Positions 3,082 to 20,341 of a DNA stretch of 64,000 nucleotides are shown piece by piece. The notes beneath the pieces were generated by a model. It searched no databases and was not told the DNA's origin. It was given only the letters and a program-made list of their open reading frames with translations. The DNA is from a bacterium (lineage in GTDB: Bacteria > Patescibacteriota > Dojkabacteria > JAKAPS01 > JAJZLI01). The stretch is taken from NCBI GenBank assembly GCA_021785355.1, contig JAJYFR010000001.1:1003-65002 (forward strand), in the 5' to 3' direction. The position numbers and the translations under genes were made by a program. Position 1 is the first letter of the stretch. Each line of letters opens with the position of its first letter.

Positions 3082-3088
3082 ATTTTTC

Positions 3089-3167
3089 CTTATAAAGGAA
3101 ATTTCTCGTACATTAAAGATGTATCTAGAGGAGTAATAAGATCTTTTTCTTTTAATGTTTGATATAT
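3089..3167. repeat. Second copy of the direct repeat; this copy is the authentic valS 3' end
   Basis: Matches 2183..2262. It encodes ...DLITPLDTSLMYEKFPL* on the minus strand. Confidence 0.7.
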
Positions 3168-5273: not shown

Positions 5274-5407
5274 ATTTTAATAATTATATCATAGAAGACA
5301 AAAAAATAGCTTTAAAATGTATATGAATAATGCTCTAAACAGAGGGATCTTTACAGATTTTATAGATAAGGTATTATAGATATAATTTATATTAGATTTT
5401 ATATTTT

Positions 5408-6889
5408 ATGAGTATAAAAATAAAAAAAGCTTATTTTTTAGTATTTTTTCTCTCTTTGTTATTAATTTATATGCTTTCTTTAGGTAAGGTATTTGCAGAT
5501 GCACCAGATGCATCTCAAGTTCTTGCTGTTAGTAAAGATTTAAAAATAGTAGTTTTACCTACACAACTTGCAAGTGGAGCACCTTCTGGGTACTATATAA
5601 TATCTAAAACAGGAGCAGTACTGTCTTATGGAAATGCCCAGTTTTATGGAGATTTAACACAAATTCCTAATATTCCTAATAATCAGGTCGCAGATATGGT
5701 TTTAACTCCAAATGATTTAGGTTATTATATTCTTACCAAAGATGGGGGAGTATATACTTTTGGAAATGCTAAGTTTTTTGGTTCTGTTTTTAATATAACT
5801 AATGCTCCTATAAAAAATGCAGTTTCTATAAAATTAACTCCAAATGGTAATGGTTATTATGTTCTTACAGAAGATGGTGCTGTATATACATTTGGAACTG
5901 CTAAATTTAATGGATCTATGTATAATATACCAGCAGCACCTAATAAGGTTCCTGTCTCATTAAATATAACTCCTAACGGTCAAGGTTATTATATTCAAAC
6001 AGAAGATGGAGGTATATATACATTTGGGAATGCTCAATTTTTAGGATCAGTATATAATATTCCTCAGGCTCCTGTAAAAAATGCAATGGGAATGAAATTA
6101 ACTCCAAGAGGTCAAGGATATTATGTTCAAACTACAGATGGAGGTGTATATACTTTTGGAACAGCTCAATTTCAAGGATCAATATTTAATATAAAAGGAG
6201 CTCCTAATAAAACAGTCGCAGATATTGCTATAACACCAAATGGACAAGGTTATTATGCTCTAACTGCAGATGGAGGAGTATATACATTTGGGAATGCTCA
6301 GTTCGATGGTGCAGATTCAGCAGATGTAGCAGAAAATACTCTTACTGTGAAAAGTTATGTACAAGAACAAGTATCTCCAACTCAAGTTTTAGTAGAGGGA
6401 GAGATTCAGAATAATTCTAATACTACAATGACAGGAGTTACTCTTACTGCAACTGGTTCTTTTGGAACTCAGACAGTTACACCTATAATGTCAGCTCTAA
6501 ATCCTGATCAAAAAACTGCATTTATGTTTAGTTATCAAGGAACAGTATCTTCAGTAACATTTAGTGTAACAGGAACAACTTTTTCATCTAGTTATACAGA
6601 TCCTTTAAAGGTAAGTAATATTCAAGTAACTCAAGGTAGTGGAACTATAACAGTTACAGGAAATGTTACTAATAATTCTTCAGTTACTATAACTACTCCT
6701 AAGGTAGATATATTGTTTTTTGACTCAAATGAAAATATAGTAGCTCTACTAGATGCTACTAATAGTTTAGCTTCAAGTACCATTGCTCCAGGAGCTACAA
6801 CAACATTTAGTGCAACTCTTACGGGAGCTCCTGTATCTCAAGTATCTACAAACTTTGATGATGCAGTAAAAGTTTTTGCATCAAATTAG
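5408..6889 (+). CDS. Secreted repeat protein: signal peptide, about 6 copies of a ~44-aa GYYxLTxDGGVYTFGNAQFxGS repeat, and two Thr/Ser/Val-rich beta-sandwich-like C-terminal domains
   Basis: 493 aa. The signal peptide MSIKIKKAYFLVFFLSLLLIYMLSLGKVFA precedes tandem repeats of period 44 aa. The same repeat family occurs in 15870..17945 and 17945..20041. Confidence 0.8.
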   Translation: MSIKIKKAYFLVFFLSLLLIYMLSLGKVFADAPDASQVLAVSKDLKIVVLPTQLASGAPSGYYIISKTGAVLSYGNAQFYGDLTQIPNIPNNQVADMVLTPNDLGYYILTKDGGVYTFGNAKFFGSVFNITNAPIKNAVSIKLTPNGNGYYVLTEDGAVYTFGTAKFNGSMYNIPAAPNKVPVSLNITPNGQGYYIQTEDGGIYTFGNAQFLGSVYNIPQAPVKNAMGMKLTPRGQGYYVQTTDGGVYTFGTAQFQGSIFNIKGAPNKTVADIAITPNGQGYYALTADGGVYTFGNAQFDGADSADVAENTLTVKSYVQEQVSPTQVLVEGEIQNNSNTTMTGVTLTATGSFGTQTVTPIMSALNPDQKTAFMFSYQGTVSSVTFSVTGTTFSSSYTDPLKVSNIQVTQGSGTITVTGNVTNNSSVTITTPKVDILFFDSNENIVALLDATNSLASSTIAPGATTTFSATLTGAPVSQVSTNFDDAVKVFASN

Positions 6890-6905
6890 TATAAGTATAA
6901 AATAT

Positions 6906-6937
6906 GTAAAAAGGAGGGGAAACTCTCCTTTTTACTT
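6906..6937. terminator. Bidirectional rho-independent terminator between convergent genes
   Basis: gtaaaaaggag-ggga-aactctcctttttac forms an ~11-bp stem with a flanking A-run on one side and a T-run on the other. It sits between the stop of 5408..6889 (+) and the stop of 6932..7834 (-). Confidence 0.55.
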
Positions 6938-7834
6938 TATTACAAAAACATTACCCCCAGAAACTCCTATTAGACCCTTGTCTGTTTTTTTTATTAAAGA
7001 TATAGATTTTCCTTTTTTTAAATAACCCTTTTTTATAGAATTTTGAGATATAAATAACAATTCTCCTTTCTCTGTTCCTGCAAATAACATATTATCGATA
7101 ATGTCTAAAGAAGTAATAACAGAATCATTTTGAAATATTTCTTCTGTCTTCCATTCATCTGAAACATTTTCTAGTGAAAAAATTTTCTCACCTTTTGAAT
7201 AAATATAATTTTTTTCACTAATAGCAATTAAATTACGAGGAGAATTTATATCAGATAATTTCTCTACATTATAACTGTCATCTTCATGAAGATTCCATTT
7301 AAAAATACCTTCAAATCCTGAAGATACAAAAGATTTGCTGTTTAAGATAATAAATTTCTCAGTTTCAGGTACAATATCTGTTTTATTGTTTTTTAAAGTA
7401 AGATATTTTGTTTCCTTACCTATTCTTATTAAAGAAATATCCTCTTCATATGCACCTATTAATATAGAACTAAAATCCAGTGTTGCTGCTGAAAGTAGAA
7501 TAGGGGTCTTTATAAAAATTCTTTTTTTATAGCTTCTTTTATCTTCTCTTACTACAAGGATTCTTTCGTCTGAAAATTCAGATGCTTGTCTTACTAAAAA
7601 AGTTAATAATCTTTGATTATCATCTATACAAAATGTATCTACTATATTCTCTGAAGGATAAGAATTTTGAACAGGTTCAAGTCCTAATAAAGGGTCCCTT
7701 TTAAAAACATTTCCTTTTTTAGAATAATAGATCTCCCCCTTTTGAGATACCTGTATTGAGCTACTATCAACTTTACCTACAAGATACTCAGAGAGATCAA
7801 AATCTTCATCTGTGTGTTCTAATTCTAAATTCAT
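6932..7834 (-). CDS. Hypothetical protein
   Basis: 300-aa ORF in an AT-rich genome, which makes a chance ORF of this length unlikely. No recognisable motifs. Confidence 0.55.
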   Translation of the reverse strand: MNLELEHTDEDFDLSEYLVGKVDSSSIQVSQKGEIYYSKKGNVFKRDPLLGLEPVQNSYPSENIVDTFCIDDNQRLLTFLVRQASEFSDERILVVREDKRSYKKRIFIKTPILLSAATLDFSSILIGAYEEDISLIRIGKETKYLTLKNNKTDIVPETEKFIILNSKSFVSSGFEGIFKWNLHEDDSYNVEKLSDINSPRNLIAISEKNYIYSKGEKIFSLENVSDEWKTEEIFQNDSVITSLDIIDNMLFAGTEKGELLFISQNSIKKGYLKKGKSISLIKKTDKGLIGVSGGNVFVIK

Positions 7835-7921
7835 ATAATGTTTTGAAAATAAAACAACTTATACAATATTTTTATTTAACTGTCAATTGTTTTAGAAAGA
7901 ATAAAAGAGGGTGTTTAATCG

Positions 7922-9244
7922 TTATTGCCCATTCCAGTATTGAGCAATCATTGAAATTCCTGATACTTGGTTAGTATCCCAAGTTTGTTCAGATGCAAGT
8001 CCTGAAACTGTTCCTTGTACTCTAAATGTAGCACCATTTTCTGAATTACTATTTGTTTGAGTAGCATAAAGACCATAACTATTAAATGAAGAAGAGTTCC
8101 AAGATCCATTTAATCCACAATACGTTGGACAATTATTACCAACAACTATATTTACTGGACCAAAAGTATCATTAACAGTATCTCCATTTATTCTAGCATT
8201 ACCTTCTATATTGAAAAATAACCTAGGAGATAAATTGACCGTTATATCTGCTATTGGTGTTCCATTTACATAAAATACTGCAGTATTATCCTGTGACCAC
8301 CATGCAAGTTCTATATTTGTAGGACTATTCGAGGCTGGAGATAAATATTCATAAGAAAATACTCCGTTTTGAACTCTTTCCCATGTGTAGAAAGGAAGTC
8401 CATGAGAAGATGCAGAAGTTGAATCTGTTTGTATTCCTACGGAAATTGCATTATTATTTGCATCATGAGCATTTATATATGCAGAATATCCTGTTCCAGA
8501 ACCAGATTCTGTAATAGTATCTGTGTATGTTAAATATGGAGAACCAGATGGTATAATTACAGGGTTAGATACTACTGATCCTGGAGTAAAAGATATACCT
8601 GTAAATGTTGTATCACAGATATCTCCAGGTTCTCTTGATGCAGCTAAAAATGAAATAGAAGGATTATTTTCTGCTACAGGATATACACCTAAAGTTACTT
8701 GATTGTCTATTGTTACAGAAATACCTGTAGCTGTCCATGTAATTTGAAAATGGTGTGAAGCTCCATTTATTGCTCCTCCTGGCCAATATCCTCCAACAGG
8801 TTTTCCATTCGCAGCGCCCTCTACCATTATAGTTATTCCATTTGGAGATACTCCTGGGTCATGAATAAAACCAAAAGCTATATAATTATTAGGATCATTC
8901 CAAAATTGTACTAAACCTTTATATCCTGTTCCTGCTCCATATGCACAAACTCCATTAGGACAATATGTACCTTTTAGATCTACATTTAAAGTCCCAGAAG
9001 AAGAGCCCCTGTATGTAGTAGTTGCCCCAGATTGATAATTTACAGGTCCAGTACCCCATGCACCTTGATTCTTTCTCATACCCCACGCATGTACTGTACT
9101 TCCATAAGTTGATGTAGTTGCATATAATCCAGGATCCCAAGAATAAGGAGAAAGTTGAGCAGAAGCTGCAAAGGATTTATGTGCAGTTAATATAAAAATA
9201 ACTACAATGAAAAATACATATATAAAAGATTTTAATATTTTCAT
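7922..9244 (-). CDS. Secreted hypothetical protein (signal peptide; Gly/Thr/Ser/Asn-rich, lectin/glycan-binding-like)
   Basis: The start is moved to the internal Met MKILKSFIYVFFIVVIFILTAHKSFA, a classical signal peptide; the ORF track starts 12 codons earlier at 9280. The protein is about 440 aa and beta-rich. Confidence 0.65.
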   Translation of the reverse strand: MKILKSFIYVFFIVVIFILTAHKSFAASAQLSPYSWDPGLYATTSTYGSTVHAWGMRKNQGAWGTGPVNYQSGATTTYRGSSSGTLNVDLKGTYCPNGVCAYGAGTGYKGLVQFWNDPNNYIAFGFIHDPGVSPNGITIMVEGAANGKPVGGYWPGGAINGASHHFQITWTATGISVTIDNQVTLGVYPVAENNPSISFLAASREPGDICDTTFTGISFTPGSVVSNPVIIPSGSPYLTYTDTITESGSGTGYSAYINAHDANNNAISVGIQTDSTSASSHGLPFYTWERVQNGVFSYEYLSPASNSPTNIELAWWSQDNTAVFYVNGTPIADITVNLSPRLFFNIEGNARINGDTVNDTFGPVNIVVGNNCPTYCGLNGSWNSSSFNSYGLYATQTNSNSENGATFRVQGTVSGLASEQTWDTNQVSGISMIAQYWNGQ

Positions 9245-9489
9245 TGAATATATTCTATAAGAATATATATTTTTATACAATATAATCTCTGATTTTATTA
9301 TACAAATGCCTAAAACTCAGGTTTAAAATAATACCACTTTAGTATAACTTGGAAATTTTTAAACTTTTTTTCTTATTTTAGTGTGTATTTTTATTAAACT
9401 CCGACCGTGTCAGGTCGCGAGAAGTTTATTATATTTAATTACATATATCTATGCAATTTTTGGTGTGTTTAAAGATGAGCTAGTCATAT

Positions 9490-9915
9490 TTAGTGAAAAT
9501 AACTATTACTTATATTTAAAAATTCTGCGGGTTTTATAATTTGTATGTTTCTATATTGTGTTATTGACAATAAATCATCATCCCCACTTATTATATAGTC
9601 GACATTTCCAATAACTGCAGTTTCTATGACTTTGTTATCATCATGATCTCTACTTATTTTAACTGTAAGGCTACCAAGAGGAACCAAGGTTGCATCTTTC
9701 CTGATTGAGAGTTCAAGCAATTCCATGTTTGCTTGAAATAGCGGGAATTTTCTTGTTATTGTTCTGTGAAGCTCTGTAATAATTTCTTCACTAATTATTA
9801 TATTTATTTTTTTATCAATAAATTGTTGCAGTATAATTCTTGGAATTCCCCCAAAAACTAATCCAGATATCCATACATTAGTATCAATAACTACCTTAAT
9901 ATTGTGATTGGGCAT
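9490..9915 (-). CDS. PIN-domain toxin (PIN_3/TIGR00305-like)
   Basis: 141 aa. VVIDTNVWISGL at the N-terminus and DYIISGDDDLL near the C-terminus. It is paralogous to 53290..53751 and sits adjacent to an RHH partner. Confidence 0.7.
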   Translation of the reverse strand: MPNHNIKVVIDTNVWISGLVFGGIPRIILQQFIDKKINIIISEEIITELHRTITRKFPLFQANMELLELSIRKDATLVPLGSLTVKISRDHDDNKVIETAVIGNVDYIISGDDDLLSITQYRNIQIIKPAEFLNISNSYFH

Positions 9916-9920
9916 AATAT

Positions 9921-10151
9921 TTAATCTTCTTTAATTATTCTATAAACATCTTCTTCGTTATTAATCCCCATCTGCTTTCCAACTTTTCTACCTGCAGATA
10001 AAAGTTTCTTCCAACGTTTACGTTTATCTAAGTCCGCAATGGCAAGCCTTCTAAAATACTCACTTCTACTTCCTAAGTCTTGTTTAACTGCTTTATCAAT
10101 CTCTGTTAACAACTTTTTGTCAATTGCAATATTAACTGTTCGTGTGCTCAT
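9921..10151 (-). CDS. Ribbon-helix-helix (CopG-family) antitoxin
   Basis: 76 aa. TRTVNIAIDKKLLTEIDKAVK...RSEYFRRLAIADL is a typical RHH fold sequence. It lies 5 nt upstream of the PIN gene. Confidence 0.6.
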   Translation of the reverse strand: MSTRTVNIAIDKKLLTEIDKAVKQDLGSRSEYFRRLAIADLDKRKRWKKLLSAGRKVGKQMGINNEEDVYRIIKED

Positions 10152-10433
10152 AATTTACCTCCTTGTATTGATATTGTATTGATATTGTATTGAATTGTCA
10201 ACACTATGTGTAGGTGTAAATTTAGTATAAAATATTAATAACATAAAGGATTTACCAAAATATAAAAGTAAATTTATTTCCACCGTACAACAAAGAGGGC
10301 AGGTAGATCTTCCTATGTAAATCAGAAAAATACTAGGAATATCTCCACAAACTAAGTTTATTTTTGTCGTAGATAATGATTATTCTAAAAATTGAAGCAT
10401 TTCCTTTATCCATAGAGGATGCTTTTGAGAATT

Positions 10434-11345
10434 TTATTTTTCTATAACATTTAATTTTAAGAGCTGCAATAGGTATAGCAATTTTATTGAAATTATTATT
10501 ATAAAGTTTATCAGGACATTATTTTGAGTGAAATAATGTTTCTTATAAAAAATATACATTGCATCTGAATATGCTTTTATCCATCTTCTTTTTGTTTCTT
10601 TGTCTGCAGAAGAAAGTTTACTGCTAGATTTTTTTAATCCTCCAGAAGCTCCTTTATAATGTAGGATTGAAGTTTTAGGTGTATACATTATTTTCCAGTT
10701 ATTTTCTTTTATCCTAAAACATAAATCTAGATCTTCTCCCATAGCCCAAAATGATTCGTCAAAAAAAGCTGTTTTCGTATGCTTTTTATTTCCTGAAAAT
10801 ACTTCTTTTCTAATAAACATAAAAGCTCCTGTGCAAGCATCTATCTCTATTTCTCTGTTAATACTACCTTCTATGTTATAACCTTTAAATTTATCTGAAA
10901 ATTTTGATAGATTTAAAAGTTTACCTATACTATTTGAGATTGTAGGAAAACTTCTTCTACATGCTTTATCTAATTCTCCTGAAGGAAGAAATAGGGGACA
11001 AGTAGAAACACCTACATCTTTGTGTATCTCCATAAAATTATACATTTCACTCAGTGTATTTTTATTAAGTTTTGTATCTGGGTTAAGAATTAATATATAT
11101 CTTCCTTTTGCTATTTTTAAAGCCTGATTGTTAGCTTTTGAAAAACCTACATTATCTTTATTTTTTATATATATATACTCTCTACTGTCCTTAAACAATT
11201 TATACGTATCATCTCTTCCATTATCAATTATAAATATCTCTTTTTTAAGATTATCCTCACTTTGTTTTATAGAAAAAAGACAATCTGCAAGTAAAGATTT
11301 TACATTATATGTTACTATTATTATGCTAATATCTATGTTTTTCAT
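10434..11345 (-). CDS. Glycosyltransferase family 2
   Basis: The ISIIIVTYN N-terminal strand and a DNGRDDT DxD-like motif indicate a GT-A fold. Confidence 0.8.
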   Translation of the reverse strand: MKNIDISIIIVTYNVKSLLADCLFSIKQSEDNLKKEIFIIDNGRDDTYKLFKDSREYIYIKNKDNVGFSKANNQALKIAKGRYILILNPDTKLNKNTLSEMYNFMEIHKDVGVSTCPLFLPSGELDKACRRSFPTISNSIGKLLNLSKFSDKFKGYNIEGSINREIEIDACTGAFMFIRKEVFSGNKKHTKTAFFDESFWAMGEDLDLCFRIKENNWKIMYTPKTSILHYKGASGGLKKSSSKLSSADKETKRRWIKAYSDAMYIFYKKHYFTQNNVLINFIIIISIKLLYLLQLLKLNVIEK

Positions 11346-11417
11346 AATATTTTCGCCTATATTATACTTTAATTCCTTTTATTTCTATAGTTTTTTTTAA
11401 TATCTTTAGGGTATAAT

Positions 11418-12188
11418 ATGTATTATATGAATAAAAATGACAGAGATCTTCTCTTAGAATTCGTAAAAACTGATTTTACCTTAAGATATAATAATTCTGT
11501 ATTAGGGTTTCTGTGGGTTGTTCTGAAACCTCTTTTAATGTTTACTGTAATGTATATAGTGTTTTCTCTTTTTTTAGGTACTAGTGTTAAATATTATGCA
11601 CTGTATCTTCTTTTAGGAATAATGCTTTATAATTTTTTTAATGAGGTTACTGTAAATGGAATGAATTCTCTCTTGCAGAAAAAAGATATAATGCTTAAAG
11701 TTAATTTTAAAAGATATATAGCAGTAATAGGTTCTTCTGTTATAGCATTAATAAATTTATTCTTTAATCTAATAGTATCTGTAGTTTTTTTTATATTTAA
11801 TAGAGTTCTTCCTTCTTTTGAGGGAATTTTATTTTTTCTCTTAGGGATAATAATTTTATATATCTTGGGAATAGCAATATCTTTTTTTATAAGTATTTTC
11901 TATGTAAAATTTAGAGATTTACAACATATATGGGAGATTGTTATGTTTGTTTTATTCTACCTTACCCCTATAGTCTATCCTATATCTTTAGTTCATGGTA
12001 AATTTGCATTAATAATAGATGCAAATCCTCTTACACATATTCTTAATTTTGCTAGACAATCTATAATCTACGGAAAGTATTTGTCTGTATATTCTACTAT
12101 GATAATATTTGTTTTATCTATAACACTTTTTATTTTAGGTTTCTATTTTTTTGAAAGAAGTATTAAAAAAATAGCTGAAGATTTTTAA
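11418..12188 (+). CDS. ABC-2 type polysaccharide export permease (Wzm/TagG-like)
   Basis: 256 aa with 6 predicted TM helices and the ABC-2 architecture. It lies immediately upstream of the cognate ATPase. Confidence 0.8.
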   Translation: MYYMNKNDRDLLLEFVKTDFTLRYNNSVLGFLWVVLKPLLMFTVMYIVFSLFLGTSVKYYALYLLLGIMLYNFFNEVTVNGMNSLLQKKDIMLKVNFKRYIAVIGSSVIALINLFFNLIVSVVFFIFNRVLPSFEGILFFLLGIIILYILGIAISFFISIFYVKFRDLQHIWEIVMFVLFYLTPIVYPISLVHGKFALIIDANPLTHILNFARQSIIYGKYLSVYSTMIIFVLSITLFILGFYFFERSIKKIAEDF

Positions 12189-12191
12189 TAT

Positions 12192-13358: not shown

Positions 13359-14176
13359 ATTTTTCTTAATATCTTTATATATTCAGGAATAAAATCCTTA
13401 TTTTTAAAATAATAGATAGGCATCTTTAGAATATCGTATATTTTTGCAATCTTGATCTCTTTTTTCATATTATGTTTTTTTAGTAATTTGTATTTATTTC
13501 TTAGAGAATATTTTAAATTTCTCAAATTACTCTCGCTACCTCTTAAGTGTACACACTCTGCTGAACTTATTAATAAATTATCATAACCTTCTTTTCTTAA
13601 TCTTAATCCTAAATCAACATCTTCATAATAAGATCTGAAAGTTGTGTCAAAAAAACCTACATCATCTATTGCTGATCTACTATAAATTGCAGCTGCAGCG
13701 CAACATGCAAATACTTTTTTTATACCAAAATATTTTTTCTTGATATCATTTGCGCTATATCCAAAATTAAGATATATCCCTTCACTATCAATTTTTGTTT
13801 TCTTAGAATCTTTGTAATATATTCCTTGTGCAGAACCTATCGTAACATCTTTACTCATCACTTCTACTATTTTTTGTATATATGATGAATTTAGAAATGC
13901 ATCATGATTTAAAGTGAGTATATATTCACCTTTCGATATTAAAAATCCCTGCAAATTAGCCTTTGCAAATCCTACATTTTTTTTATTTTCTATTACTTTA
14001 ATGTTTTTTATACCCTTAATATATTTTAGAGTATGATCTTTTGAATTATTGTCAACTACAATAATCTCTATATCATTATAAGTCTGTTTTAAAACTCTAA
14101 GAATTGTCTCTTGTATAAATTTTTCACTATTATATGTAACTATTATCACACTTACCATAAATGCATTATATATCAT
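13355..14176 (-). CDS. Glycosyltransferase family 2
   Basis: The VSVIIVTYN strand and a DNNSKDHT DxD-like motif. Its stop overlaps the Wzt stop by 4 nt (convergent genes). Confidence 0.8.
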   Translation of the reverse strand: MIYNAFMVSVIIVTYNSEKFIQETILRVLKQTYNDIEIIVVDNNSKDHTLKYIKGIKNIKVIENKKNVGFAKANLQGFLISKGEYILTLNHDAFLNSSYIQKIVEVMSKDVTIGSAQGIYYKDSKKTKIDSEGIYLNFGYSANDIKKKYFGIKKVFACCAAAAIYSRSAIDDVGFFDTTFRSYYEDVDLGLRLRKEGYDNLLISSAECVHLRGSESNLRNLKYSLRNKYKLLKKHNMKKEIKIAKIYDILKMPIYYFKNKDFIPEYIKILRKI

Positions 14177-14214
14177 ATTGCAAATTTATTTTTATAATTA
14201 AACAATATTTACCA

Positions 14215-14242
14215 TTGACAAATACTATAAGTCTGATATAAT
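14215..14242 (+). promoter_or_regulatory. Sigma70-like promoter TTGACA-16-TATAAT with extension TTGACAAATACTATAAG, a variant of the 1008 and 27904 motif
   Basis: TTGACA at 14215..14220 and TATAAT at 14237..14242, about 35 nt upstream of the ATG at 14277. Confidence 0.4.
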
Positions 14243-14276
14243 ACATCTTTATATAATTTTAATAAATCTGTATATT

Positions 14277-14798
14277 ATGGAAAATGAAAGAAGAATAAGT
14301 AAGAATGAAAAAAGAAGAAGTTTTTATATTTCTAAAATTTCAGATGATAAAGGAAATGTAACAGAAGTTTCTAATAGTTATGATACTAAAGGTAATCTTA
14401 TTCAGAGAACAGAAGAAACAAAATTTTCTGATCAAAGAGAAGGAAATCTAAAAAAAACTTATAATGTTTATGATTCTAAAGGTAATCTTATACATCAAAC
14501 AGAAAAAACAATATTTCCTGATCGTATGGAAATAATAGATTTTTTCTGTGGAAAGGATAATGTTTTGTTTAAAAGTGTTATTCCCAATATAGATAATGTT
14601 GATGATGTACATACTGAGTATAAAGAAGTTAATGGAAAACCAGTTTCTTTAGAAACGATTTTTAATGGTGAATATAAAAAAGAGGAATATAGAGAAGATG
14701 GATCTTTGATAAGAGAAACTATAAGAAATGTTGATTCATCAGGAAAAATTTCTCTATTTGTAGTTAAAGAATATAACGAAAAAGGGGAAATAATATAA
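14277..14798 (+). CDS. Hypothetical protein with short YD-like repeats (YDTKGNLIQRTE / YDSKGNLIHQTE)
   Basis: 173 aa. An internal duplicated ~28-aa segment is present. The upstream promoter supports the plus-strand ORF over the overlapping antisense ORF 14495..14803. Confidence 0.5.
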   Translation: MENERRISKNEKRRSFYISKISDDKGNVTEVSNSYDTKGNLIQRTEETKFSDQREGNLKKTYNVYDSKGNLIHQTEKTIFPDRMEIIDFFCGKDNVLFKSVIPNIDNVDDVHTEYKEVNGKPVSLETIFNGEYKKEEYREDGSLIRETIRNVDSSGKISLFVVKEYNEKGEII

Positions 14799-14802
14799 AA
14801 CA

Positions 14803-14852
14803 CTTACTACTTCAATTAATACCGCAAGTAGTAAGCATTTAATATTTTTTTT
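14803..14852. terminator. Possible terminator hairpin between convergent genes
   Basis: A 9-bp inverted repeat cttactact...agtagtaag with a 15-nt loop, followed by a run of 8 T (14845..14852). The loop is large, so this is weak. Confidence 0.3.
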
Positions 14853-14864
14853 AGATGTAAGAGT

Positions 14865-15302
14865 TTAGTTTGATGCAGGAAATTGATTTTTAAGAAAATT
14901 TCTTAAAGATTCTATCTCTTCAGGTGGAATTACTTCATCAATAGTTCTTCTAGTAAATTCTCTACCTTTTTTTTCGTATACAATTCTTTCAAATCTTCCT
15001 CTATATAATCTATATACAACTCCATTTGATTTAGAATCTTTTGGGTTAATATTTATTGTTAGAATAGTAGCTCTATCTCCAAATAAAGTTTCTTGAGGAT
15101 CCTCTTTCTTATTTATAGTAAGAGTGTATGTATCTGCTTTTTTAGACATAAGATCTTTAATATAATCAGGAGTTGCTACAGCTTCTCTTTCTAGTATAGC
15201 CTCTCTTTCTATTTCTGAACCATAGGTTTCACAAAACTCAATTGAAAGAGAGAATACTTCTGATAAATTATTTAATAAGTTTGTATATTTTTCATTTTCC
15301 AT
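14865..15302 (-). CDS. Hypothetical protein
   Basis: 145-aa ORF, co-directional with the two downstream genes on the minus strand. Confidence 0.5.
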   Translation of the reverse strand: MENEKYTNLLNNLSEVFSLSIEFCETYGSEIEREAILEREAVATPDYIKDLMSKKADTYTLTINKKEDPQETLFGDRATILTININPKDSKSNGVVYRLYRGRFERIVYEKKGREFTRRTIDEVIPPEEIESLRNFLKNQFPASN

Positions 15303-15308
15303 AATATT

Positions 15309-15830
15309 TTAATTGCATGAAATAATTTTAGTATCTGTAATTGCTGATTGAGGATTGGAATAACAATAAGTATTTGTAAGTTCCCATGAATTTTTTATAT
15401 TTGTTAAGTCAAACTCAATAGCATTAGATCCACTTTGATTTGTAACTTTTATAATTGATATAGTAGGAAGTTCTGTAATTACTGAATAAATTGGATTAAT
15501 ATACCCTCCTGCCATTCTTGTAATTGGATTAAGAGGGTTATTTGCTTTTTCTAAGGCTTGAGCTCTTGATCTGAATGATGAAGAAAGAGGACAAGTTGGA
15601 GTATTAGCACAGGTTTTGTAACTGTTTATAATATCTTTTATTACTACTGTTGGACTTTGTTGTGGAAATGTTGTTGCAGTTTCTTTTTTTATAGTTTTCT
15701 GAACACTTTTATTTATACTTTTTGGATTATTCTGTACTGTATTTTGATTGTTTTTAGCTACTAAAAGAACAAATAATATAACAATTATAGCTGCAAGAAT
15801 TATTATTACACTATTTTTAGTATCCTTCAT
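15309..15830 (-). CDS. Hypothetical membrane-anchored protein (N-terminal TM helix, Cys-containing ectodomain)
   Basis: 173 aa. The N-terminal TM segment SVIIILAAIIVILFVLLVA is followed by a hydrophilic region. Confidence 0.5.
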   Translation of the reverse strand: MKDTKNSVIIILAAIIVILFVLLVAKNNQNTVQNNPKSINKSVQKTIKKETATTFPQQSPTVVIKDIINSYKTCANTPTCPLSSSFRSRAQALEKANNPLNPITRMAGGYINPIYSVITELPTISIIKVTNQSGSNAIEFDLTNIKNSWELTNTYCYSNPQSAITDTKIISCN

Positions 15831-15869
15831 TACAAGGATTATATCAGATTTATACTTATTCTAAAAGCT

Positions 15870-17945
15870 TTACTGAGTAATTGCTATTGCTCCACTCGGA
15901 TCAGGATATAAGGTTCCTTCAGAAAGTATCCCTCCAAATGTATATAAAGCACCATCTTTCTCTAAAATCATATATCCAGAATTTGTTATTAATAGACTCG
16001 TAGGATTATTTTGAGGAACAGCTGATGAAGGAATATTATACATAGATCCATAAAACTGAGCATCCCCAAATGTATATATGGCTCCATCCTTTGTCAGTAT
16101 ATAGTATCCTTCTCCTTGAGAAGAAAGTCTTAGTGCAACGGCTGTCTTTACTGGGGCATTTGGAATGTTAAAAACAGATCCATAAAACTGAGCATCTCCA
16201 AATGTATATACTGCTCCATTAGATGTAAGTATATAATAACCTGATTGATCTTGGGTTAATACCAAAGAGAGTGGAGTTCTTACAGGTACTGCAGAAGAAG
16301 GAATATTATACATAGATCCATAAAACTGCGCATTTCCAAATGTATATACCGCTCCATCTTCTGTTAGTATATAGTAACCTAGATCATTCTTTGTAGGTAC
16401 TATAGCTACAGATTGTTGCACAGGAGGATTAGGAATATTATACATAGATCCATAAAACTGCGCATTTCCAAATGTATATACCGCTCCGTTAGATGTAAGT
16501 ATATAATATCCCGTATTAGTTCTTGCTATATCTGTGGGAGTAGAATTTACAGGTAAATTTCCCCAATACTGATCTTGTCCAAAAGTAGAAACTGTTCCTT
16601 GTGATGAGAGTACAGTATAAGGGGTACTATTAACAGGATAATTTAACATATTATTTATATTTAAAAGACCAAAACCATAAAGATTATAGTTTCCCAGAGA
16701 AGTAGAACACATTTTTAATATATTTTCCATAAAAGCAGAATTTTGTACTCCATTTACAGATTCATATAAGGCGATTGCTGCTACTACCTGAGGTGTTGCA
16801 AAAGATGTTCCCACTAAATATTCATTAGAAAAACTACTAAATGAACTAACTGTCCCTGTATCATATCCTGTGAGAGTTTGTTGATATACTAAAGGTGTGT
16901 TATATCCTACAGGAGCAACTACTGTTTGACAATTTAGATCTGTACTACATCCATAATTAGAATATGAGGTAAGCGTATTAGAAGAATTACTAGCTCCAAC
17001 TGCAATTACATTTGGATATCCTGCAGGGTAATCTAGAGAATTACTTCCTTCATTTCCTGAAGCTGCAACAACAATAATTCCATCATTTATTGCTTGTTCT
17101 ATTAAAGTCTCCTCACTCTGAGATGGAGTAGTGGAGGCTATGGAAAGATTTATTATATTTGCATGATTATTAATTGCCCATTGAAGACCTAAAAGTTCTG
17201 CACCTAGAGGAATTCCATTACTATTTCCTATCTTTACAGGCATGATTGTTGCATTAAAAGCAATTCCTGCTGTAGCATAATTCAAAGAACCCGAAGCATC
17301 ATTATTTGTACTTGATGCTATTATTCCTGCTATATATGTCCCATGTCCTACATTATCATATGGAGCATATTCATTTTGAAGCTGATTGTTATATACAGCT
17401 AATGCATTATATGGATCTTTTATGTTAAGATTTGATAAAGAAGGTGCTTGTGCATAAAAAGTATTATCTAATGGATTGGTATAATTTTGATAAGCTATTC
17501 CAGAGTCTAATACAGCTATAGTAATATTAGATGACCCTCCTAAAGAACTACTAAACCCATTATTATCTACTACAGGAGCATGTGTTAAAAATAGATTTTT
17601 CTGTTGTGTTATATCTATATTATTAGGAAGTTGAGAAAAACTTTTAATGTAATTGGGAGTAACATTATAAAGATTTGTATTTGAAAGTAAGCTTATTAAG
17701 AAATTTTCATAACTCATATTGTTAGGTTTTTCTACAATTTCAGTATTAGAGTTAATTTTTCTTACACTATATCCTAAATTTAAATTTTGAGAATTTATAT
17801 TTACTATTGCATTATTGAGTGTATATCTTTTATTTTGAGTAAGAATTGTAAATTTTTGATATACAGAAATATCCTGAGCATATATCTTAGAAAACAGGAT
17901 AAATGAGAATGATAAGCTTATTGAGATAAATAAAAATTTTTTCAT
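15870..17945 (-). CDS. Secreted subtilisin-like serine protease (peptidase S8) with ~6 C-terminal GYYILTxxGAVYTFGNAQFYGS repeats
   Basis: 691 aa with a signal peptide. The S8 triad motifs are IAVLDSGI (Asp), HGTYIAGIIAS (His) and GTSFATPQVVAAIAL (Ser). The C-terminal ~250 aa consists of 44-aa tandem repeats. Confidence 0.85.
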   Translation of the reverse strand: MKKFLFISISLSFSFILFSKIYAQDISVYQKFTILTQNKRYTLNNAIVNINSQNLNLGYSVRKINSNTEIVEKPNNMSYENFLISLLSNTNLYNVTPNYIKSFSQLPNNIDITQQKNLFLTHAPVVDNNGFSSSLGGSSNITIAVLDSGIAYQNYTNPLDNTFYAQAPSLSNLNIKDPYNALAVYNNQLQNEYAPYDNVGHGTYIAGIIASSTNNDASGSLNYATAGIAFNATIMPVKIGNSNGIPLGAELLGLQWAINNHANIINLSIASTTPSQSEETLIEQAINDGIIVVAASGNEGSNSLDYPAGYPNVIAVGASNSSNTLTSYSNYGCSTDLNCQTVVAPVGYNTPLVYQQTLTGYDTGTVSSFSSFSNEYLVGTSFATPQVVAAIALYESVNGVQNSAFMENILKMCSTSLGNYNLYGFGLLNINNMLNYPVNSTPYTVLSSQGTVSTFGQDQYWGNLPVNSTPTDIARTNTGYYILTSNGAVYTFGNAQFYGSMYNIPNPPVQQSVAIVPTKNDLGYYILTEDGAVYTFGNAQFYGSMYNIPSSAVPVRTPLSLVLTQDQSGYYILTSNGAVYTFGDAQFYGSVFNIPNAPVKTAVALRLSSQGEGYYILTKDGAIYTFGDAQFYGSMYNIPSSAVPQNNPTSLLITNSGYMILEKDGALYTFGGILSEGTLYPDPSGAIAITQ
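16300..16487. repeat. Intragenic near-identical DNA repeats: a 56-nt perfect repeat at 16300..16355 and 16432..16487 with a 132-bp period
   Basis: ggaatattatacatagatccataaaactgcgcatttccaaatgtatataccgctcc occurs twice exactly. Related copies near 16050 and 16170 encode the YTFGNAQFYGS blades. Confidence 0.8.
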
Positions 17946-20041
17946 TATGGAATAAGATTAATTCCTACTGTTTTTTGAAATATACCAATAGCTGTTCCAT
18001 CATATACAGCATTTCCAAAAGTATATATCCCTCCATCTTGGGTCAACAGATAATATCCTCCATTGTTTGATGTTACTACAAATGATTGAGGTGTAGTATT
18101 AGGTGCTCCCTGAATATTGAACATAGATCCATGAAATTGTGCATCTCCAAAAGTATATACTCCTCCATCTTGAGTGGTTATATAATAACCTGCGCCATCT
18201 GGTGTGAGTGCAAAATCAACTGCATTTTTATTGGGAGCATTAGGTATATTAAAGACAGATCCATGAAATTGTGCATCTCCAAAAGTATATACTGCGCCAT
18301 TAGATGTCATTATATAATAACCACCTCCATCAGGAGTCAGTGCGAAAGCAAGAGGCGTTCTGTCAGGAAGTGCAGATGCTGGGATATTAAATAGTGATCC
18401 GTGGAATTGTGCATCTCCAAAAGTATATACTCCTCCATCCGTAGTTAAAACATAATATCCTTTTCCATCAGGTGTAGTTACAATTGAGACTGGAGTTTTT
18501 ATTGGAGCATTAGGTATATTAAAAACAGATCCATAGAATTGAGCAGATCCAAATGTATATATTCCTCCATCAGTAGTTAGGATATAGTAGCCTGTATCAT
18601 TTGGTAGAGTTGCTAAACCTTGCGCATTTGAATCAGGAGCTCCATTTACATACGACATATCTCCATAATAATTTGCATTTCCAAATGCAAGAACTTTTCC
18701 TGCAGAAGAAAGTAGGGTATATGCACTGTTTATATTTGAAAAAATAGAATTTGTTGTAAAATATGTATTTATAGCTGATGTAAGGTTAGTTGACGGTTGT
18801 TCATAGCCTAATGTCCATAAACTAACTCCTCTAAGATTAGATTGTAAAACTTGAGAGTAAACTAAACCTAGTGATGTAGCATTAGAATAGTATCCTTGTC
18901 TTAACTGATCTGAGGAGGCACAGTTAGGTGGAGTATTATTAGAAGGATAGCAATATCCATACCAAGGAGTTGAGCTTTGTGAATCCCAATGCTTAGTATT
19001 TTGATTTTTATATTGATCATTTGTCTGACCATAAGGTTCATTTATTCCACTTCCTGATACAGTAGATGCATTTTGATTATTAGATGTTGTTTGATAATCA
19101 TTTCCATAATATGGAACACCTAAAATTATTTTATTAGGATTAATAGCTGATGCATAATCAAGAATTGTACGTCTAACATCATACCATAAAGGACCTGCTC
19201 CGTTATTATATCCTGTAAAAGGATTTACAGGCTCAGCTACACTGGATGAAGGAGTGTAATAATCATAAGCCATTACATTTAGAGCATCTGTAACGTTTGC
19301 AAGTTGAGGAACATTAAATAATGATCCTGTCCAACGTACTGCTGAAGCAAAAACATCTACACTAACAAAAGATCCTGGAATTTGAGAATGTGTTTGTTGA
19401 GTTAGATTAGAAATAAAAGTTGTAAAATTATTTATTGTTGTAGTGCTAGGTGTTCCTTGTGAAGGTTGATATTCAAAGTCTATATTTACTCCATCACAAT
19501 TAAATTTCTTTACTATAGATATAATATTATTAATAAAATTTTGAGCATTTGTTGTATTATTTACAACACTTTCAATGTCTGTGATATTAAATATTTTTGC
19601 AGAAATTATAACCCGTACATTTTTTGAATGGGCAGTGTTTACCATATCTGTAAATTGAGAAGAATTTAATCCAGCCCAACCACTTCCTCCTCCTGCGTTT
19701 GTTCCAAAATTACCATTACCATCTGATGTTATTCCAAAATAGTCTATTGTAGTAAGATTAGAATAAGGATATGAAGTATATGCACCAGAAGAAAGATCCC
19801 AATATGGAGCAAATCCCATAACCTCCTTTTGTAAACCTTGTGGGCCTAAACTCGCAAATTTCTTTAAAGGTTGAGGTTTACTAACAGCAGGTGTAAACGA
19901 ATATGTTTTATTTGAATAGAAAGAGTTTAGATAACTGTTTCCTTGATATGCTGAAGATGGAGGTGTACTCGCAAAAACTCTACCTGTTAGAGAAAGAGAG
20001 AATACTGTGAAAAATATAGAAAAAAATATTTTTTTAAACAT
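17945..20041 (-). CDS. Secreted glycoside hydrolase family 18 (chitinase/endo-beta-N-acetylglucosaminidase-like) with ~6 C-terminal repeats of the same family
   Basis: 698 aa with the signal peptide MFKKIFFSIFFTVFSLSLTGRVFA. GH18 motifs are GFAPYWD, the catalytic DGVNIDFEY (DxxDxDxE) and MAYDYY. The C-terminal repeats are GYYVLTTDGGVYTFGDAQFHGS. Confidence 0.8.
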   Translation of the reverse strand: MFKKIFFSIFFTVFSLSLTGRVFASTPPSSAYQGNSYLNSFYSNKTYSFTPAVSKPQPLKKFASLGPQGLQKEVMGFAPYWDLSSGAYTSYPYSNLTTIDYFGITSDGNGNFGTNAGGGSGWAGLNSSQFTDMVNTAHSKNVRVIISAKIFNITDIESVVNNTTNAQNFINNIISIVKKFNCDGVNIDFEYQPSQGTPSTTTINNFTTFISNLTQQTHSQIPGSFVSVDVFASAVRWTGSLFNVPQLANVTDALNVMAYDYYTPSSSVAEPVNPFTGYNNGAGPLWYDVRRTILDYASAINPNKIILGVPYYGNDYQTTSNNQNASTVSGSGINEPYGQTNDQYKNQNTKHWDSQSSTPWYGYCYPSNNTPPNCASSDQLRQGYYSNATSLGLVYSQVLQSNLRGVSLWTLGYEQPSTNLTSAINTYFTTNSIFSNINSAYTLLSSAGKVLAFGNANYYGDMSYVNGAPDSNAQGLATLPNDTGYYILTTDGGIYTFGSAQFYGSVFNIPNAPIKTPVSIVTTPDGKGYYVLTTDGGVYTFGDAQFHGSLFNIPASALPDRTPLAFALTPDGGGYYIMTSNGAVYTFGDAQFHGSVFNIPNAPNKNAVDFALTPDGAGYYITTQDGGVYTFGDAQFHGSMFNIQGAPNTTPQSFVVTSNNGGYYLLTQDGGIYTFGNAVYDGTAIGIFQKTVGINLIP

Positions 20042-20155
20042 AATTTAATATAACATATTATTATCTATACAAGCAAAATATGAGTTCTATTTTATAAAAA
20101 AATGCCAAGAGAATATAGAACTGCAGTGCATGATGTAATTATACAAGTTTCCCTA

Positions 20156-20217
20156 AACCGATAAATTATGTCAAATTCTTGGGTTGTAACCGATAAATTA
20201 CCTTGAATTCTTGGGTT
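20156..20217. repeat. Two tandem imperfect 30-bp direct repeats, AACCGATAAATTA-N5-AATTCTTGGGTT, in a divergent intergenic region
   Basis: aaccgataaattatgtcaaattcttgggtt at 20156..20185 and aaccgataaattaccttgaattcttgggtt at 20188..20217, lying between the divergent starts at 20041 (-) and 20342 (+). Confidence 0.6.
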
Positions 20218-20341
20218 CTAGTTTTGAATATTTCAATTTATACTATTAACTCTCTTACTTTTATTTATATATAATATTTTTATCTACACTAATTTAAATA
20301 CATTTATAGATTCTGAATAAGTAAATATAATATATGTAAAT

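What the first reader, a model, noticed from the sequence alone, without database searches (positions are those of the whole stretch)
5408..20041. Family of three secreted proteins sharing an unrecognised ~44-aa tandem repeat module but carrying different catalytic heads (S8 protease, GH18 hydrolase, non-enzymatic)
ORFs 5408..6889, 15870..17945 and 17945..20041 each carry a signal peptide and about 6 tandem copies of a 44-residue unit with consensus TPNGxGYYILTxDGGVYTFGNAQFxGSxFNIPNAPxKxAV. I cannot assign this repeat to a named family. The DGGVYTFGNAQFxGS core is faintly reminiscent of RCC1-like beta-propeller blades, but the period is too short for canonical RCC1. The repeat block is C-terminal to a subtilisin S8 domain in one protein and to a GH18 chitinase-like domain (DGVNIDFEY) in another. 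In the third it precedes two Thr/Ser-rich beta-sandwich domains. A shared repeat with swappable enzymatic heads suggests a common targeting or cell-surface binding propeller that delivers lytic enzymes (protease plus glycanase) to a substrate such as a host or prey cell wall. The two enzyme genes are adjacent and overlap by 1 nt, so they form an operon. This is the most system-like novelty in the window.
Basis: partly seen in the sequence, partly recalled or inferred. Interest (0 to 1): 0.8.

Follow-up and report, generated by a model that had tools for sequence, protein, structure and literature searches.

The report
Wall-targeting propeller on secreted hydrolases
Three secreted proteins of an uncultivated ultra-small (Patescibacteria) bacterium share a six-bladed propeller domain from a very large family with no name of its own, and the same module sits where phage cell-lysing enzymes carry their wall-binding domain, so it most likely tethers a protease and a sugar-cutting enzyme to a bacterial cell wall.

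Summary
Three signal-peptide proteins each carry exactly six tandem 44-residue units, and the units occur nowhere else in the window. The units fold with high confidence (pLDDT 90.5) into a six-bladed beta-propeller.

The repeat is only partly "unrecognised". Pfam RCC1_2 scores marginally above its cut-off here, but the similarity covers only a ~15-residue hairpin. The module belongs to a very large, sharply defined family: six blades, mostly 42-residue period, 10,263 clusters at E<=1e-30. Pfam and NCBIfam have no dedicated model, no member has a solved structure, and I found no literature on it.

Its partners elsewhere are mainly peptidoglycan hydrolases, proteases and Ig-like domains. In phage genomes a three-unit version sits C-terminal to Amidase_2 endolysins, the canonical wall-binding-domain position.

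The S8 and GH18 fusions, their gene pair and the surrounding surface-glycan cluster are conserved in about a dozen Patescibacteria genomes. Similar fusions occur in Acidimicrobiia.

Best reading: a non-covalent cell-wall or envelope-glycan binding propeller that targets secreted enzymes. Whether it binds the cell's own wall or a host's is open. I rate it a new variant of a known kind, of moderate interest.

The parts
17945..20041 (-). GH18-propeller gene (698 aa), first gene of the pair
   Evidence: ORF. Pfam Glyco_hydro_18 7.6e-34. About nine full-length orthologues at 62-81% identity, some named 'Patescibacteria group bacterium'.
19970..20041 (-). predicted signal peptide of the GH18 protein (aa 1-24, MFKKIFF...GRVFA)
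   Evidence: Read from the sequence; not tested with a predictor.
18803..19690 (-). GH18 catalytic domain (aa 118-413); motif D183-G-V-N186-I-D188-F-E190 at nt 19469..19495
   Evidence: Pfam. The motif aligns with DGLDLDWEY of chitotriosidase. N at the second acidic position is the subfamily norm, 97 of 120 homologues. Nearest solved structures by family profile are 4wiw and YdhD 3cz8.
17948..18721 (-). six-unit propeller of the GH18 protein (aa 441-698)
   Evidence: Six unit-HMM hits across 17978..18721; 55% identical to the S8 propeller.
15870..17945 (-). S8-propeller gene (691 aa); its start overlaps the GH18 stop by 1 nt (TAATG)
   Evidence: ORF, overlap, twelve full-length orthologues at 56-64% identity.
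17877..17945 (-). predicted signal peptide of the S8 protein (aa 1-23, MKKFLF...SKIYA)
   Evidence: Read from the sequence; not tested with a predictor.
17532..17876 (-). N-terminal region between signal peptide and catalytic domain (aa 24-138), possibly a subtilase propeptide
   Evidence: Inferred from its position and an ending (..NVTPNYIKSF) that recalls the I9 propeptide; no Pfam hit.
16668..17531 (-). Peptidase_S8 domain (aa 139-426) with D147, H201, N298 and S381
   Evidence: Pfam 1.6e-37. Triad motifs located and conserved in orthologues.
15873..16619 (-). six-unit propeller of the S8 protein (aa 443-691)
5408..6889 (+). protein A (493 aa): signal peptide, propeller and a Thr/Ser-rich C-terminal region, with no enzyme domain found
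   Evidence: ORF; Pfam and NCBIfam scans.
5573..6361 (+). six-unit propeller of protein A
   Evidence: Six unit-HMM hits, E 7e-20 to 8e-26; TRF periods of 132 and 264 nt.
6641..6844 (+). FxLYD domain of protein A (aa 412-479)
   Evidence: NCBIfam NF038353, 2.1e-8, 34 bits against a cut-off of 23; weak DUF3426 and DUF2393 hits.
15309..15830 (-). 173-aa protein with an N-terminal membrane anchor, 39 nt downstream of the S8 gene; probably the same operon
   Evidence: ORF. 54% identical to the gene in the same position in L011, but not in L009. No family hit.
7922..9244 (-). 440-aa secreted protein of unknown fold; sits directly upstream of GH18-S8 in relatives but elsewhere in this window; possible fourth component
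   Evidence: 83% identical to L011 4511..5830. Synteny in L009-L012. No Pfam, NCBIfam or PDB hit.

Best explanation
The 44-residue units build a six-bladed beta-propeller. It is a short-period offshoot of the RCC1-like repeat superfamily and acts as a non-catalytic module that binds the cell wall or an envelope glycan. In this Patescibacteria (CPR) genome the whole six-blade propeller was duplicated and joined to three different partners: a pre-pro subtilase (S8), a GH18 glycosidase acting on GlcNAc-containing glycans, and an FxLYD-type beta-rich region. All three are exported by Sec signal peptides and have no sortase or lipoprotein motif, so the propeller would be what holds them on a wall. 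The GH18 and S8 genes are co-transcribed and lie inside the organism's surface-glycan synthesis and export island.

Shown here: the repeat, the fold, intact catalytic motifs, the family's size and architecture, its C-terminal position on phage endolysins, and the conserved synteny.

Inferred: that the propeller binds peptidoglycan or a wall-linked glycan, probably multivalently with one site per blade; that it localises the enzymes; and whose wall is bound, the bacterium's own or that of the host it lives on.
For: Repeat and fold.

Family definition: in the top 150 of an exhaustive search, 113 proteins have exactly six units and 687 of 853 spacings are 42 aa. There are 21,333, 16,948 and 10,263 clusters at E<=1e-3, 1e-10 and 1e-30.

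Partner domains: among 120 word-indexed hits, NlpC/P60 7, CHAP 6, Amidase_2 1 and Rpf-like transglycosylase 1. Further partners are SpoIID, S53 and S8. The unbiased sample gives CHAP 4, SpoIID 2, GH25 1, peptidase A4 2, S8 1, CAP 2 and Ig-like domains.

Phage evidence: 102 IMG/VR contigs encode the module. Of 35 ORFs with at least three units, 28 carry three units at the C-terminus of roughly 125-400 aa proteins. Of 31 scanned, 15 have N-terminal Amidase_2, and 14 match the commonest PHROG endolysin family with further families matched by others. In L016 the lysin matches cover residues 7-176 and the repeats 182-298. In L019 and L026 the flanking genes are tail-fibre, minor-tail and virion proteins. 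Endolysins of phages infecting Gram-positive bacteria are built as an N-terminal enzymatic domain plus a C-terminal wall-binding domain (abstracts of PMC11674121 and 10.1101/2024.01.16.575832, listed).

Enzyme heads: S8 triad D147, H201 and S381 plus N298. GH18 keeps D188 and E190, and the N186 variant is the subfamily norm.

Operon and synteny.

The organism makes its own wall and glycans: MurJ, Wzm/Wzt and many GT2/GT4 genes.

Whole-propeller duplication: the 46-aa step falls in the same blade of the S8 and GH18 proteins, blades 2-4 score highest on the diagonal, and propellers group by partner in the NJ tree.
Against: No binding was measured and no ligand site was identified; I could not inspect model coordinates. 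The wall-binding inference comes from homologues (29-43% identity, or three-unit phage versions), not from the window proteins themselves. In the unbiased sample the partners are varied (Ig-like domains, other propellers, a solute-binding protein, a beta-lactamase), so the module could be a general extracellular interaction domain and not a peptidoglycan binder. RCC1-like propellers with known functions, including BLIP-II, bind proteins. The GH18 head cannot be assigned to peptidoglycan or chitin: the family profile scores 4wiw at 2e-32, YdhD at 5e-26, chitinases at about 1e-24 and SleL at 7.5e-14. Signal peptides were not tested with a predictor.
Confidence: 0.6

Rival explanations
1. The propeller is a protein-protein interaction platform, as in RCC1, the HERC and RPGR domains and BLIP-II. 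It would dock the enzymes onto a specific surface protein (S-layer, pilus, or the conserved 440-aa secreted protein), or regulate the attached catalytic domain, and would not bind wall glycan.
For: The only sequence relatives with known function are protein-binding RCC1-like domains. BLIP-II is a secreted seven-bladed propeller that binds beta-lactamases (PMC9146315). In Saccharibacteria the pilin PilX2 carries an RCC1-repeat propeller and is proposed as the host adhesin (PMC12206443). Partners in the unbiased sample include many non-hydrolase domains. A highly conserved secreted protein of unknown function is syntenic with the enzyme pair.
Against: Similarity to RCC1 domains is limited to a 15-residue structural hairpin. 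BLIP-II is not detected at E<=10. A module that recurs on autolysin-type enzymes across phyla, and at the C-terminus of phage endolysins that must act on many host strains, fits a conserved wall ligand better than a lineage-specific protein partner. Inter-blade identity of 55-70%, kept across paralogues, is typical of multivalent lectin-type propellers (the comparison is from my own knowledge).
Confidence: 0.2
2. Host-attack reading: the propeller recognises the wall of the episymbiont's host. The Patescibacteria cell would use a wall-targeting module of the type common in Actinobacteria and their phages to deliver a protease and a glycosidase to the host surface at the contact site, for feeding or attachment.
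For: Cultivated Patescibacteria are obligate episymbionts, and Saccharibacteria grow on Actinobacteria (abstracts of PMC12206443 and PMC10633639). Named members of the family at large are Actinomycetota, Acidimicrobiales and Acidimicrobiia. The phage contigs carrying the module appear G+C-rich, judged from the many overlapping ORFs in both listings. The CPR propellers form one clade and were shuffled onto lytic-type heads. The enzyme pair is conserved in about a dozen related genomes.
Against: This is a special case of the best explanation and adds an untested target. The genes lie inside the organism's own glycan-synthesis and export island, and the organism has MurJ, which fits binding to its own envelope equally well. 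The host of this lineage is unknown. The CPR clade was not shown to nest inside actinobacterial sequences; the tree is a rough NJ tree without support values. No toxin, secretion-system or contact-dependent machinery is linked to the genes.
Confidence: 0.15
3. The propeller is itself an enzyme (lactonase-, sulfotransferase- or lyase-like six-bladed propellers exist), making the proteins bifunctional.
Against: These hits have 8-14% identity and are no better than non-enzymatic propellers. The invariant residues are Gly, aromatic and small residues repeated identically in every blade. That is the pattern of a structural or multivalent binding repeat, not of a single asymmetric active site. A three-unit version in phages occupies a binding-domain position.
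Confidence: 0.05

Closest known systems
RCC1-like repeat propellers (Pfam RCC1 PF00415 and RCC1_2 PF13540; RLDs of RCC1, HERC1/2, RPGR)
   Same: They share the hairpin L-T-x-D-G-x-V-Y-x-[FW]-G followed by a Gly-rich turn, repeated once per blade. Pfam RCC1_2 scores above its sequence cut-off in the three window proteins. The best PDB sequence hits are RLDs. RCC1-labelled viral propellers are common among the BFVD hits.
   Different: This family has six blades, not seven. Its period is 42-44 residues, against 51-68 (the canonical range is from my own knowledge). DSSP sees three strands per unit. Most family members fail RCC1_2: 8 of 120 pass, and it is absent from the 25 most-matched families shown for the 86-protein sample. 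The proteins are extracellular and attached to hydrolases, not nuclear or cytosolic regulators.
BLIP-II (beta-lactamase inhibitor protein II, Streptomyces exfoliatus)
   Same: It is a secreted actinobacterial propeller of the RCC1/BLIP-II lineage with short blades: 28 kDa for seven blades (PMC9146315; PMC9218822). From my own knowledge its blades are three-stranded, like the units here. A role in cell-wall remodelling has been proposed for it.
Cell-wall-binding domains of endolysins and autolysins (LysM, SH3b, PG_binding_1, CW_7, choline-binding repeats)
   Same: Same position and logic: a non-catalytic repeat module C-terminal to Amidase_2, CHAP, NlpC/P60 or GH25 domains in phage and cellular lysins. 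One viral ORF combines it with PG_binding_1.
   Different: The fold is unrelated (a beta-propeller). No member has been characterised, there is no dedicated Pfam or NCBIfam model, and no paper in the searchable library mentions it.
Multivalent lectin propellers (tachylectin-2, RSL/AAL fucose lectins)
   Same: Highly self-similar blades, which in those lectins each form a sugar site. RSL builds a six-bladed propeller from two-blade subunits, a precedent for the three-unit phage modules forming six blades as dimers. Both points are from my own knowledge and are inference only.
   Different: No sequence or specific structural match was seen here, and sugar binding is untested.
PilX2 minor pilin of Nanosynbacter lyticus TM7x
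   Same: A Patescibacteria surface protein with a C-terminal RCC1-repeat propeller, proposed as the host-binding adhesin (PMC12206443).

Membership tests
RCC1-like repeat (Pfam RCC1_2 / RLD) | Match to the family HMM above the curated cut-off | tested here: met
   RCC1_2 scores 35.2, 41.5 and 36.2 bits against a cut-off of 22. The score is summed over repeats, with 0-1 stretch passing alone, and the precomputed annotation calls it 'faint'. WD40_RLD scores 29.6 bits against a cut-off of 150, so it is not met.
RCC1-like repeat (Pfam RCC1_2 / RLD) | Seven blades | tested here: not met
   Six units per protein, six blades in the model, and 113 of 150 top family members have six units.
RCC1-like repeat (Pfam RCC1_2 / RLD) | Repeat length of 51-68 residues with four-stranded blades | tested here: not met
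   The period is 44 aa here and 42 aa in most of the family. DSSP gives three strands of at least 3 residues per unit; a very short fourth strand cannot be excluded without coordinates.
RCC1-like repeat (Pfam RCC1_2 / RLD) | Significant sequence similarity to solved RLDs along the blade | tested here: inconclusive
   RPGR 4.7e-7, HERC1 1.8e-6 to 5e-4, RCC1 2e-3 to 1e-2. The aligned cores are 12-16 residues per blade.
BLIP-II-type propeller | Detectable sequence or closest-structure relationship to BLIP-II | tested here: not met
Six-bladed beta-propeller fold | Confident model with six radially arranged blades and closure between the two ends | tested here: met
Subtilase (peptidase S8) | Pfam match and the Asp-His-Ser triad with the oxyanion Asn | tested here: met
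   PF00082 at 1.6e-37. D147, H201, N298 and S381 are present and conserved in orthologues. Activity was not tested.
Glycoside hydrolase family 18 | Pfam match and the DxxDxDxE catalytic motif | tested here: inconclusive
   PF00704 at 7.6e-34. The motif is D183-G-V-N186-I-D188-F-E190: the acid/base Glu and the adjacent Asp are kept and the second Asp is Asn. That variant occurs in 97 of 120 homologues, so it marks a subfamily and not a decayed enzyme.
SleL/YaaH-type peptidoglycan N-acetylglucosaminidase | Closest relationship to SleL/YaaH as opposed to chitinases | tested here: inconclusive
   JGI labels the homologues 'spore germination protein YaaH', and YaaH/SleL is a glucosaminidase acting on peptidoglycan fragments (PMC10653849). 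By family profile, however, 4wiw scores 2e-32, YdhD 5e-26, chitinases about 1e-24 and SleL (4s3j) only 7.5e-14.
Endolysin/autolysin cell-wall-binding domain (functional class) | Non-catalytic module C-terminal to the lytic domain in phage endolysins | tested here: met
   Met for homologues: 28 of 35 viral ORFs with at least three units carry three units at the C-terminus, 15 of 31 scanned have N-terminal Amidase_2, and PHROG endolysin families are matched, in real phage context. The window proteins themselves are not endolysins.
Endolysin/autolysin cell-wall-binding domain (functional class) | Demonstrated binding to peptidoglycan or a wall polymer | not testable with these tools
   Needs binding assays with purified sacculi or glycans.
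FxLYD domain (NCBIfam NF038353) | HMM match above the cut-off in protein A's C-terminal region | tested here: met
   34 bits against a cut-off of 23, aa 412-479. The preceding segment aa 312-400 is only weakly similar to it.

The most novel reading that the evidence does not exclude
A Patescibacteria episymbiont uses a wall-recognition propeller of the type that Actinobacteria-like bacteria and their phages use to aim lysins at the monoderm cell wall. It has copied the propeller onto a protease, a GlcNAc-glycan hydrolase and a non-enzymatic protein. Together these would form a conserved, co-transcribed tool kit for gripping and locally digesting the host's wall at the attachment site. The family would then be both a major uncharacterised class of endolysin wall-binding domain and a host-range determinant for ultra-small bacteria.
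Probability: 0.15. Interest if true: 0.75.

Novelty: new variant of a known kind. Interest (0 to 1): 0.5.

Why it matters
Three things follow if the reading holds.

1. A family of more than 10,000 sequence clusters, with fixed six-blade geometry, has no dedicated model in Pfam or NCBIfam, no solved structure and no literature that I could find. Defining it would annotate thousands of "hypothetical" extracellular proteins, most visibly in Actinomycetota-type genomes and their phages.

2. Its position on phage endolysins points to a new class of cell-wall-binding domain. Such domains are used as affinity reagents and for engineering lysins, and few are known for high-G+C monoderm bacteria.

3. 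For Patescibacteria, whose host-interaction machinery is largely unknown, the conserved GH18-S8 pair gives concrete candidates for wall remodelling or host attack that can be tested in enrichment cultures. So do the syntenic 440-aa secreted protein and the non-enzymatic paralogue.

The individual enzymes are ordinary family members.

Tried and rejected

The 'GH25' label of the one INPHARED phage hit (MK557849, 1304 aa, C-terminal propeller after the tail genes): Pfam does not confirm it, so I did not use it as lysin evidence.

Inactive GH18 pseudo-enzyme because of Asn186: rejected, since Asn is the subfamily norm.

Assigning the GH18 head to peptidoglycan or chitin: unresolved.

AF2 on the syntenic 440-aa protein without an alignment: failed, pLDDT 31.6. 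No homologue search remained to build an alignment.

Literature searches for the motif strings, for RCC1 with endolysin, and for RCC1 with Patescibacteria gave nothing on this family apart from PilX2 in TM7x.

The promoter and terminator scan of the operon region is uninformative in 26% G+C DNA: 46 promoter-like sites against 35 expected.

The 32-nt direct repeat upstream of GH18 is not found in the relatives' loci.

There is no rRNA, tRNA or Rfam hit to place the organism. Placement rests on ValRS similarity of at most 46% to CPR genomes and on NCBI names of orthologues.

A catalytic propeller was considered and judged unlikely (see rivals).


Full report
1. What is in the sequence

The three ORFs are real: protein A 5408..6889 (+, 493 aa), the S8 protein 15870..17945 (-, 691 aa) and the GH18 protein 17945..20041 (-, 698 aa). 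The core motif G-x-[VIL]-Y-T-F-G recurs every 44 residues, with one 46-residue step in the same blade of the S8 and GH18 proteins. Tandem Repeats Finder sees the 132-nt period in all three genes. A unit HMM built from the window finds exactly six units in each protein. Central units score E 1e-20 to 1e-26, the terminal units of the S8 and GH18 proteins are degenerate, and nothing else in the six-frame translation of the 64 kb matches.

Pfam places Peptidase_S8 (1.6e-37) and Glyco_hydro_18 (7.6e-34) N-terminal to the repeats. The S8 triad D147, H201 and S381 with N298 is intact. The GH18 motif is D183-G-V-N186-I-D188-F-E190. Protein A has no enzyme domain. Its Thr/Ser-rich tail (19% T, 13% S) contains one FxLYD domain. 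The GH18 stop and the S8 start overlap in TAATG. All three N-termini look like Sec signal peptides and none has a sortase or lipobox signal; this is by inspection only.

2. Fold

3. Is the repeat a known family?

Partly. Pfam RCC1_2 reaches 35-41 bits against a cut-off of 22 in all three proteins. The nearest PDB sequences are the RCC1-like domains of RPGR, HERC1, HERC2 and RCC1. The aligned part, however, is only the hairpin LTxDGxVYTFG. The blade number (six) and the period (44) do not fit canonical RCC1.

The relatives of this module mostly escape RCC1_2. Only 8 of 120 word-indexed homologues match it at E<=1e-4. It is not among the 25 most-matched families shown for 86 top hits of an exhaustive search. 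NCBIfam has nothing for the repeat. BLIP-II, the short-bladed secreted member of the RCC1/BLIP-II lineage (PMC9146315; PMC9218822), is never detected. I therefore treat the module as a distinct branch of the RCC1-like superfamily without a name of its own. It is not a member of the RCC1 repeat family as that family is defined.

4. The family at large

A propeller-only profile searched against 1.84 billion representative proteins finds 21,333 clusters at E<=1e-3 and 10,263 at E<=1e-30. Among the top 150, 113 have exactly six units, and others have 10-12 or 18, which suggests tandem propellers. The spacing is 42 residues in 687 of 853 cases, with consensus GYWLVAsDGGIFsFGDAxFyGS. Organisms named by sources are Actinomycetota, Acidimicrobiales, Acidimicrobiia and Aciditerrimonas.

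Catalytic partners are dominated by wall hydrolases: NlpC/P60 7, CHAP 6, Amidase_2 1 and Rpf-like 1 of 120. SpoIID, GH25, peptidase A4, S8, S53, CAP and various Ig-like domains also occur. No paper in the searchable library mentions the motif or an RCC1-like wall-binding domain in lysins.

5. The phage clue

A pattern scan of IMG/VR finds 102 viral contigs encoding the module. Of 35 ORFs with at least three units, 28 carry exactly three units at the C-terminus of proteins of roughly 125-400 residues. Of 31 scanned, 15 have an N-terminal Amidase_2 domain. Fourteen match the commonest PHROG endolysin family, and further endolysin and amidase families are matched by others. For L016, the one ORF with a full table, the lysin matches cover residues 7-176 and the repeats 182-298; L019 shows the same layout in its sequence. 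In L019 and L026 the neighbours are tail-fibre, minor-tail and virion proteins.

In endolysins of phages that infect monoderm bacteria the C-terminal module is the wall-binding domain (abstracts listed). This is the strongest evidence, although indirect, that the propeller binds a wall component. Three blades cannot close a propeller, so a dimer forming six blades is a reasonable inference that I could not test.

6. The window's own lineage

The window is part of a 165-kb metagenomic contig. The exact GH18 protein also occurs on a contig of up to 757 kb. ValRS is at most 46% identical to Kerfeldbacteria and Saccharibacteria genomes. NCBI names orthologues 'Patescibacteria group bacterium'.

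Twelve S8+propeller and about nine GH18+propeller orthologues exist at 56-81% identity. More distant S8+propeller and GH18+propeller proteins (29-36% identity) occur in Acidimicrobiia and unnamed lineages. In three relatives' loci (L009, L011 and L012; L010 duplicates L009) the order is: 439-aa secreted protein, GH18-propeller, S8-propeller. A small gene follows, which in L011 is 54% identical to the window's 173-aa membrane-anchored protein and in L009 is unrelated. All of this lies within the same GT2/Wzm-Wzt neighbourhood, and in L011 and L012 next to ValRS. The 439-aa protein is 83% identical to window ORF 7922..9244, which in this genome lies next to protein A instead.

A rough NJ tree puts all CPR-type propellers in one clade, sub-grouped by partner: S8, GH18, A, and Kelch or unknown. 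In the S8 x GH18 comparison, blades 2-4 match best on the diagonal (59, 64 and 77%). Whole six-blade propellers were therefore duplicated and re-attached before these genomes diverged.

The window also carries MurJ and an island of at least 35 kb of glycosyltransferases and exporters. The organism thus builds its own peptidoglycan and surface glycan.

7. Mechanism

Most likely (0.6): the propeller is a non-covalent, probably multivalent, binder of peptidoglycan or a wall-linked glycan. It retains Sec-exported proteins on a wall and concentrates the protease and glycosidase on their substrate.

The GH18 head keeps its catalytic Asp and Glu. The Asn at the second acidic position is the rule in its subfamily (97 of 120). 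By family profile it is nearest to an uncharacterised bacterial GH18 (4wiw) and to YdhD, ahead of chitinases and of SleL. The substrate, chitin-like glycan or peptidoglycan glycan, stays open.

Whose wall is bound is also open. Location in the organism's own glycan island and the presence of MurJ favour its own envelope. The episymbiotic lifestyle of cultivated Patescibacteria and the family's link to Actinobacteria-type bacteria and their phages leave a host-directed role possible (0.15). A protein-docking role like other RCC1-like domains is the main rival (0.2). A catalytic propeller is unlikely (0.05).

8. Verdict

The enzymes are ordinary S8 and GH18 members. The shared module is a new variant of a known kind: an unnamed, uncharacterised, very large six-bladed branch of RCC1-like propellers used as a targeting domain. 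Interest is moderate (0.5). The find is valuable for annotation and for endolysin and CPR biology, but neither the fold nor the modular logic is surprising, and function remains inferred.

Noticed in passing
window 7922..9244 (-): A 440-aa secreted protein with no Pfam, NCBIfam or PDB match. It is 83% identical to its counterpart in L011, more conserved than the S8 enzyme and about as conserved as the GH18 enzyme. In three relatives' loci (L009, L011, L012) it lies directly upstream of GH18-S8, but here it sits about 8.7 kb away next to protein A. It may be a fourth component of the system. AF2 without an alignment failed (pLDDT 31.6).
   Followed up: partly
window 20156..20217: Two tandem copies of a 30-32-nt direct repeat (AACCCAAGAATT-N6-AATTTATCGGTT) in the 300-nt region upstream of the GH18 gene. 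None is expected by chance. It is absent from the relatives' loci. It may be a regulator-binding site.
   Followed up: partly
L016-L071 (IMG/VR viral contigs), e.g. L019 2692..3603: Phage Amidase_2 endolysins end in exactly three units of the repeat, half a propeller. This suggests the wall-binding module assembles as a dimer. Two viral proteins of about 1000 aa (L013, L014) carry 11-12 units.
   Followed up: partly
window 14277..14798 (+): A 173-aa ORF with a 90-nt (30-aa) tandem repeat (KGNLIQRTE..-type) and no family match. It lies on the opposite strand just beyond the end of the GH18-S8 operon.
   Followed up: no
window 9490..9915 (-) and about 9921..10151 (-): A PIN_3 domain protein preceded by a 76-aa ORF, which looks like a VapBC-type toxin-antitoxin pair. 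It lies between the relocated 440-aa gene and the glycosyltransferase cluster, at what looks like a rearrangement breakpoint relative to L011.
   Followed up: no
window 10434..13358 and 20342..34423: An island of at least 35 kb for surface-glycan synthesis and export: several GT2 genes, a Wzm/Wzt ABC exporter with a Wzt_C domain, a 990-aa methyltransferase-GT2-GT4 fusion, DUF2142, and four consecutive GT4 genes. The propeller enzymes are embedded in it, and the arrangement is conserved in relatives.
   Followed up: partly
window 6932..7834 (-): A 300-aa protein without a signal peptide, between protein A and the 440-aa gene. It has only a weak beta-propeller hint (Beta-prop_RIG_2nd, E 0.005).
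   Followed up: no
L009 11094..13863: In one related genome two Peptidase_C39_2 genes follow the GH18-S8 pair, in place of the small membrane protein seen in the window and in L011.
   Followed up: no
P0001, P0134, P0135, P0137 (related metagenomic proteins): The CPR-type 44-aa propeller is also fused C-terminal to Kelch repeats, giving a double-propeller protein. This is a further partner within the same lineage.
   Followed up: partly
window 15873..16619 and 5719..6300: Two-blade periodicity inside the propellers. S8 blades 3 and 5 are 70% identical and blades 2 and 4 are 66% identical, and both odd blades carry the SSAVP loop. TRF finds a 264-nt period in protein A. This hints at growth by duplication of blade pairs, or at gene conversion.
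   Followed up: partly
window 1..64000: No tRNA, rRNA or any Rfam family at gathering score in 64 kb of 19-34% G+C DNA (2-kb windows). MurJ (56469..58316), GroEL (58726..60360) and a UvrD/PD-(D/E)XK helicase-nuclease (60452..63136) are present, as is a HerA/AAA_10-type ATPase (49247..51211).
   Followed up: no
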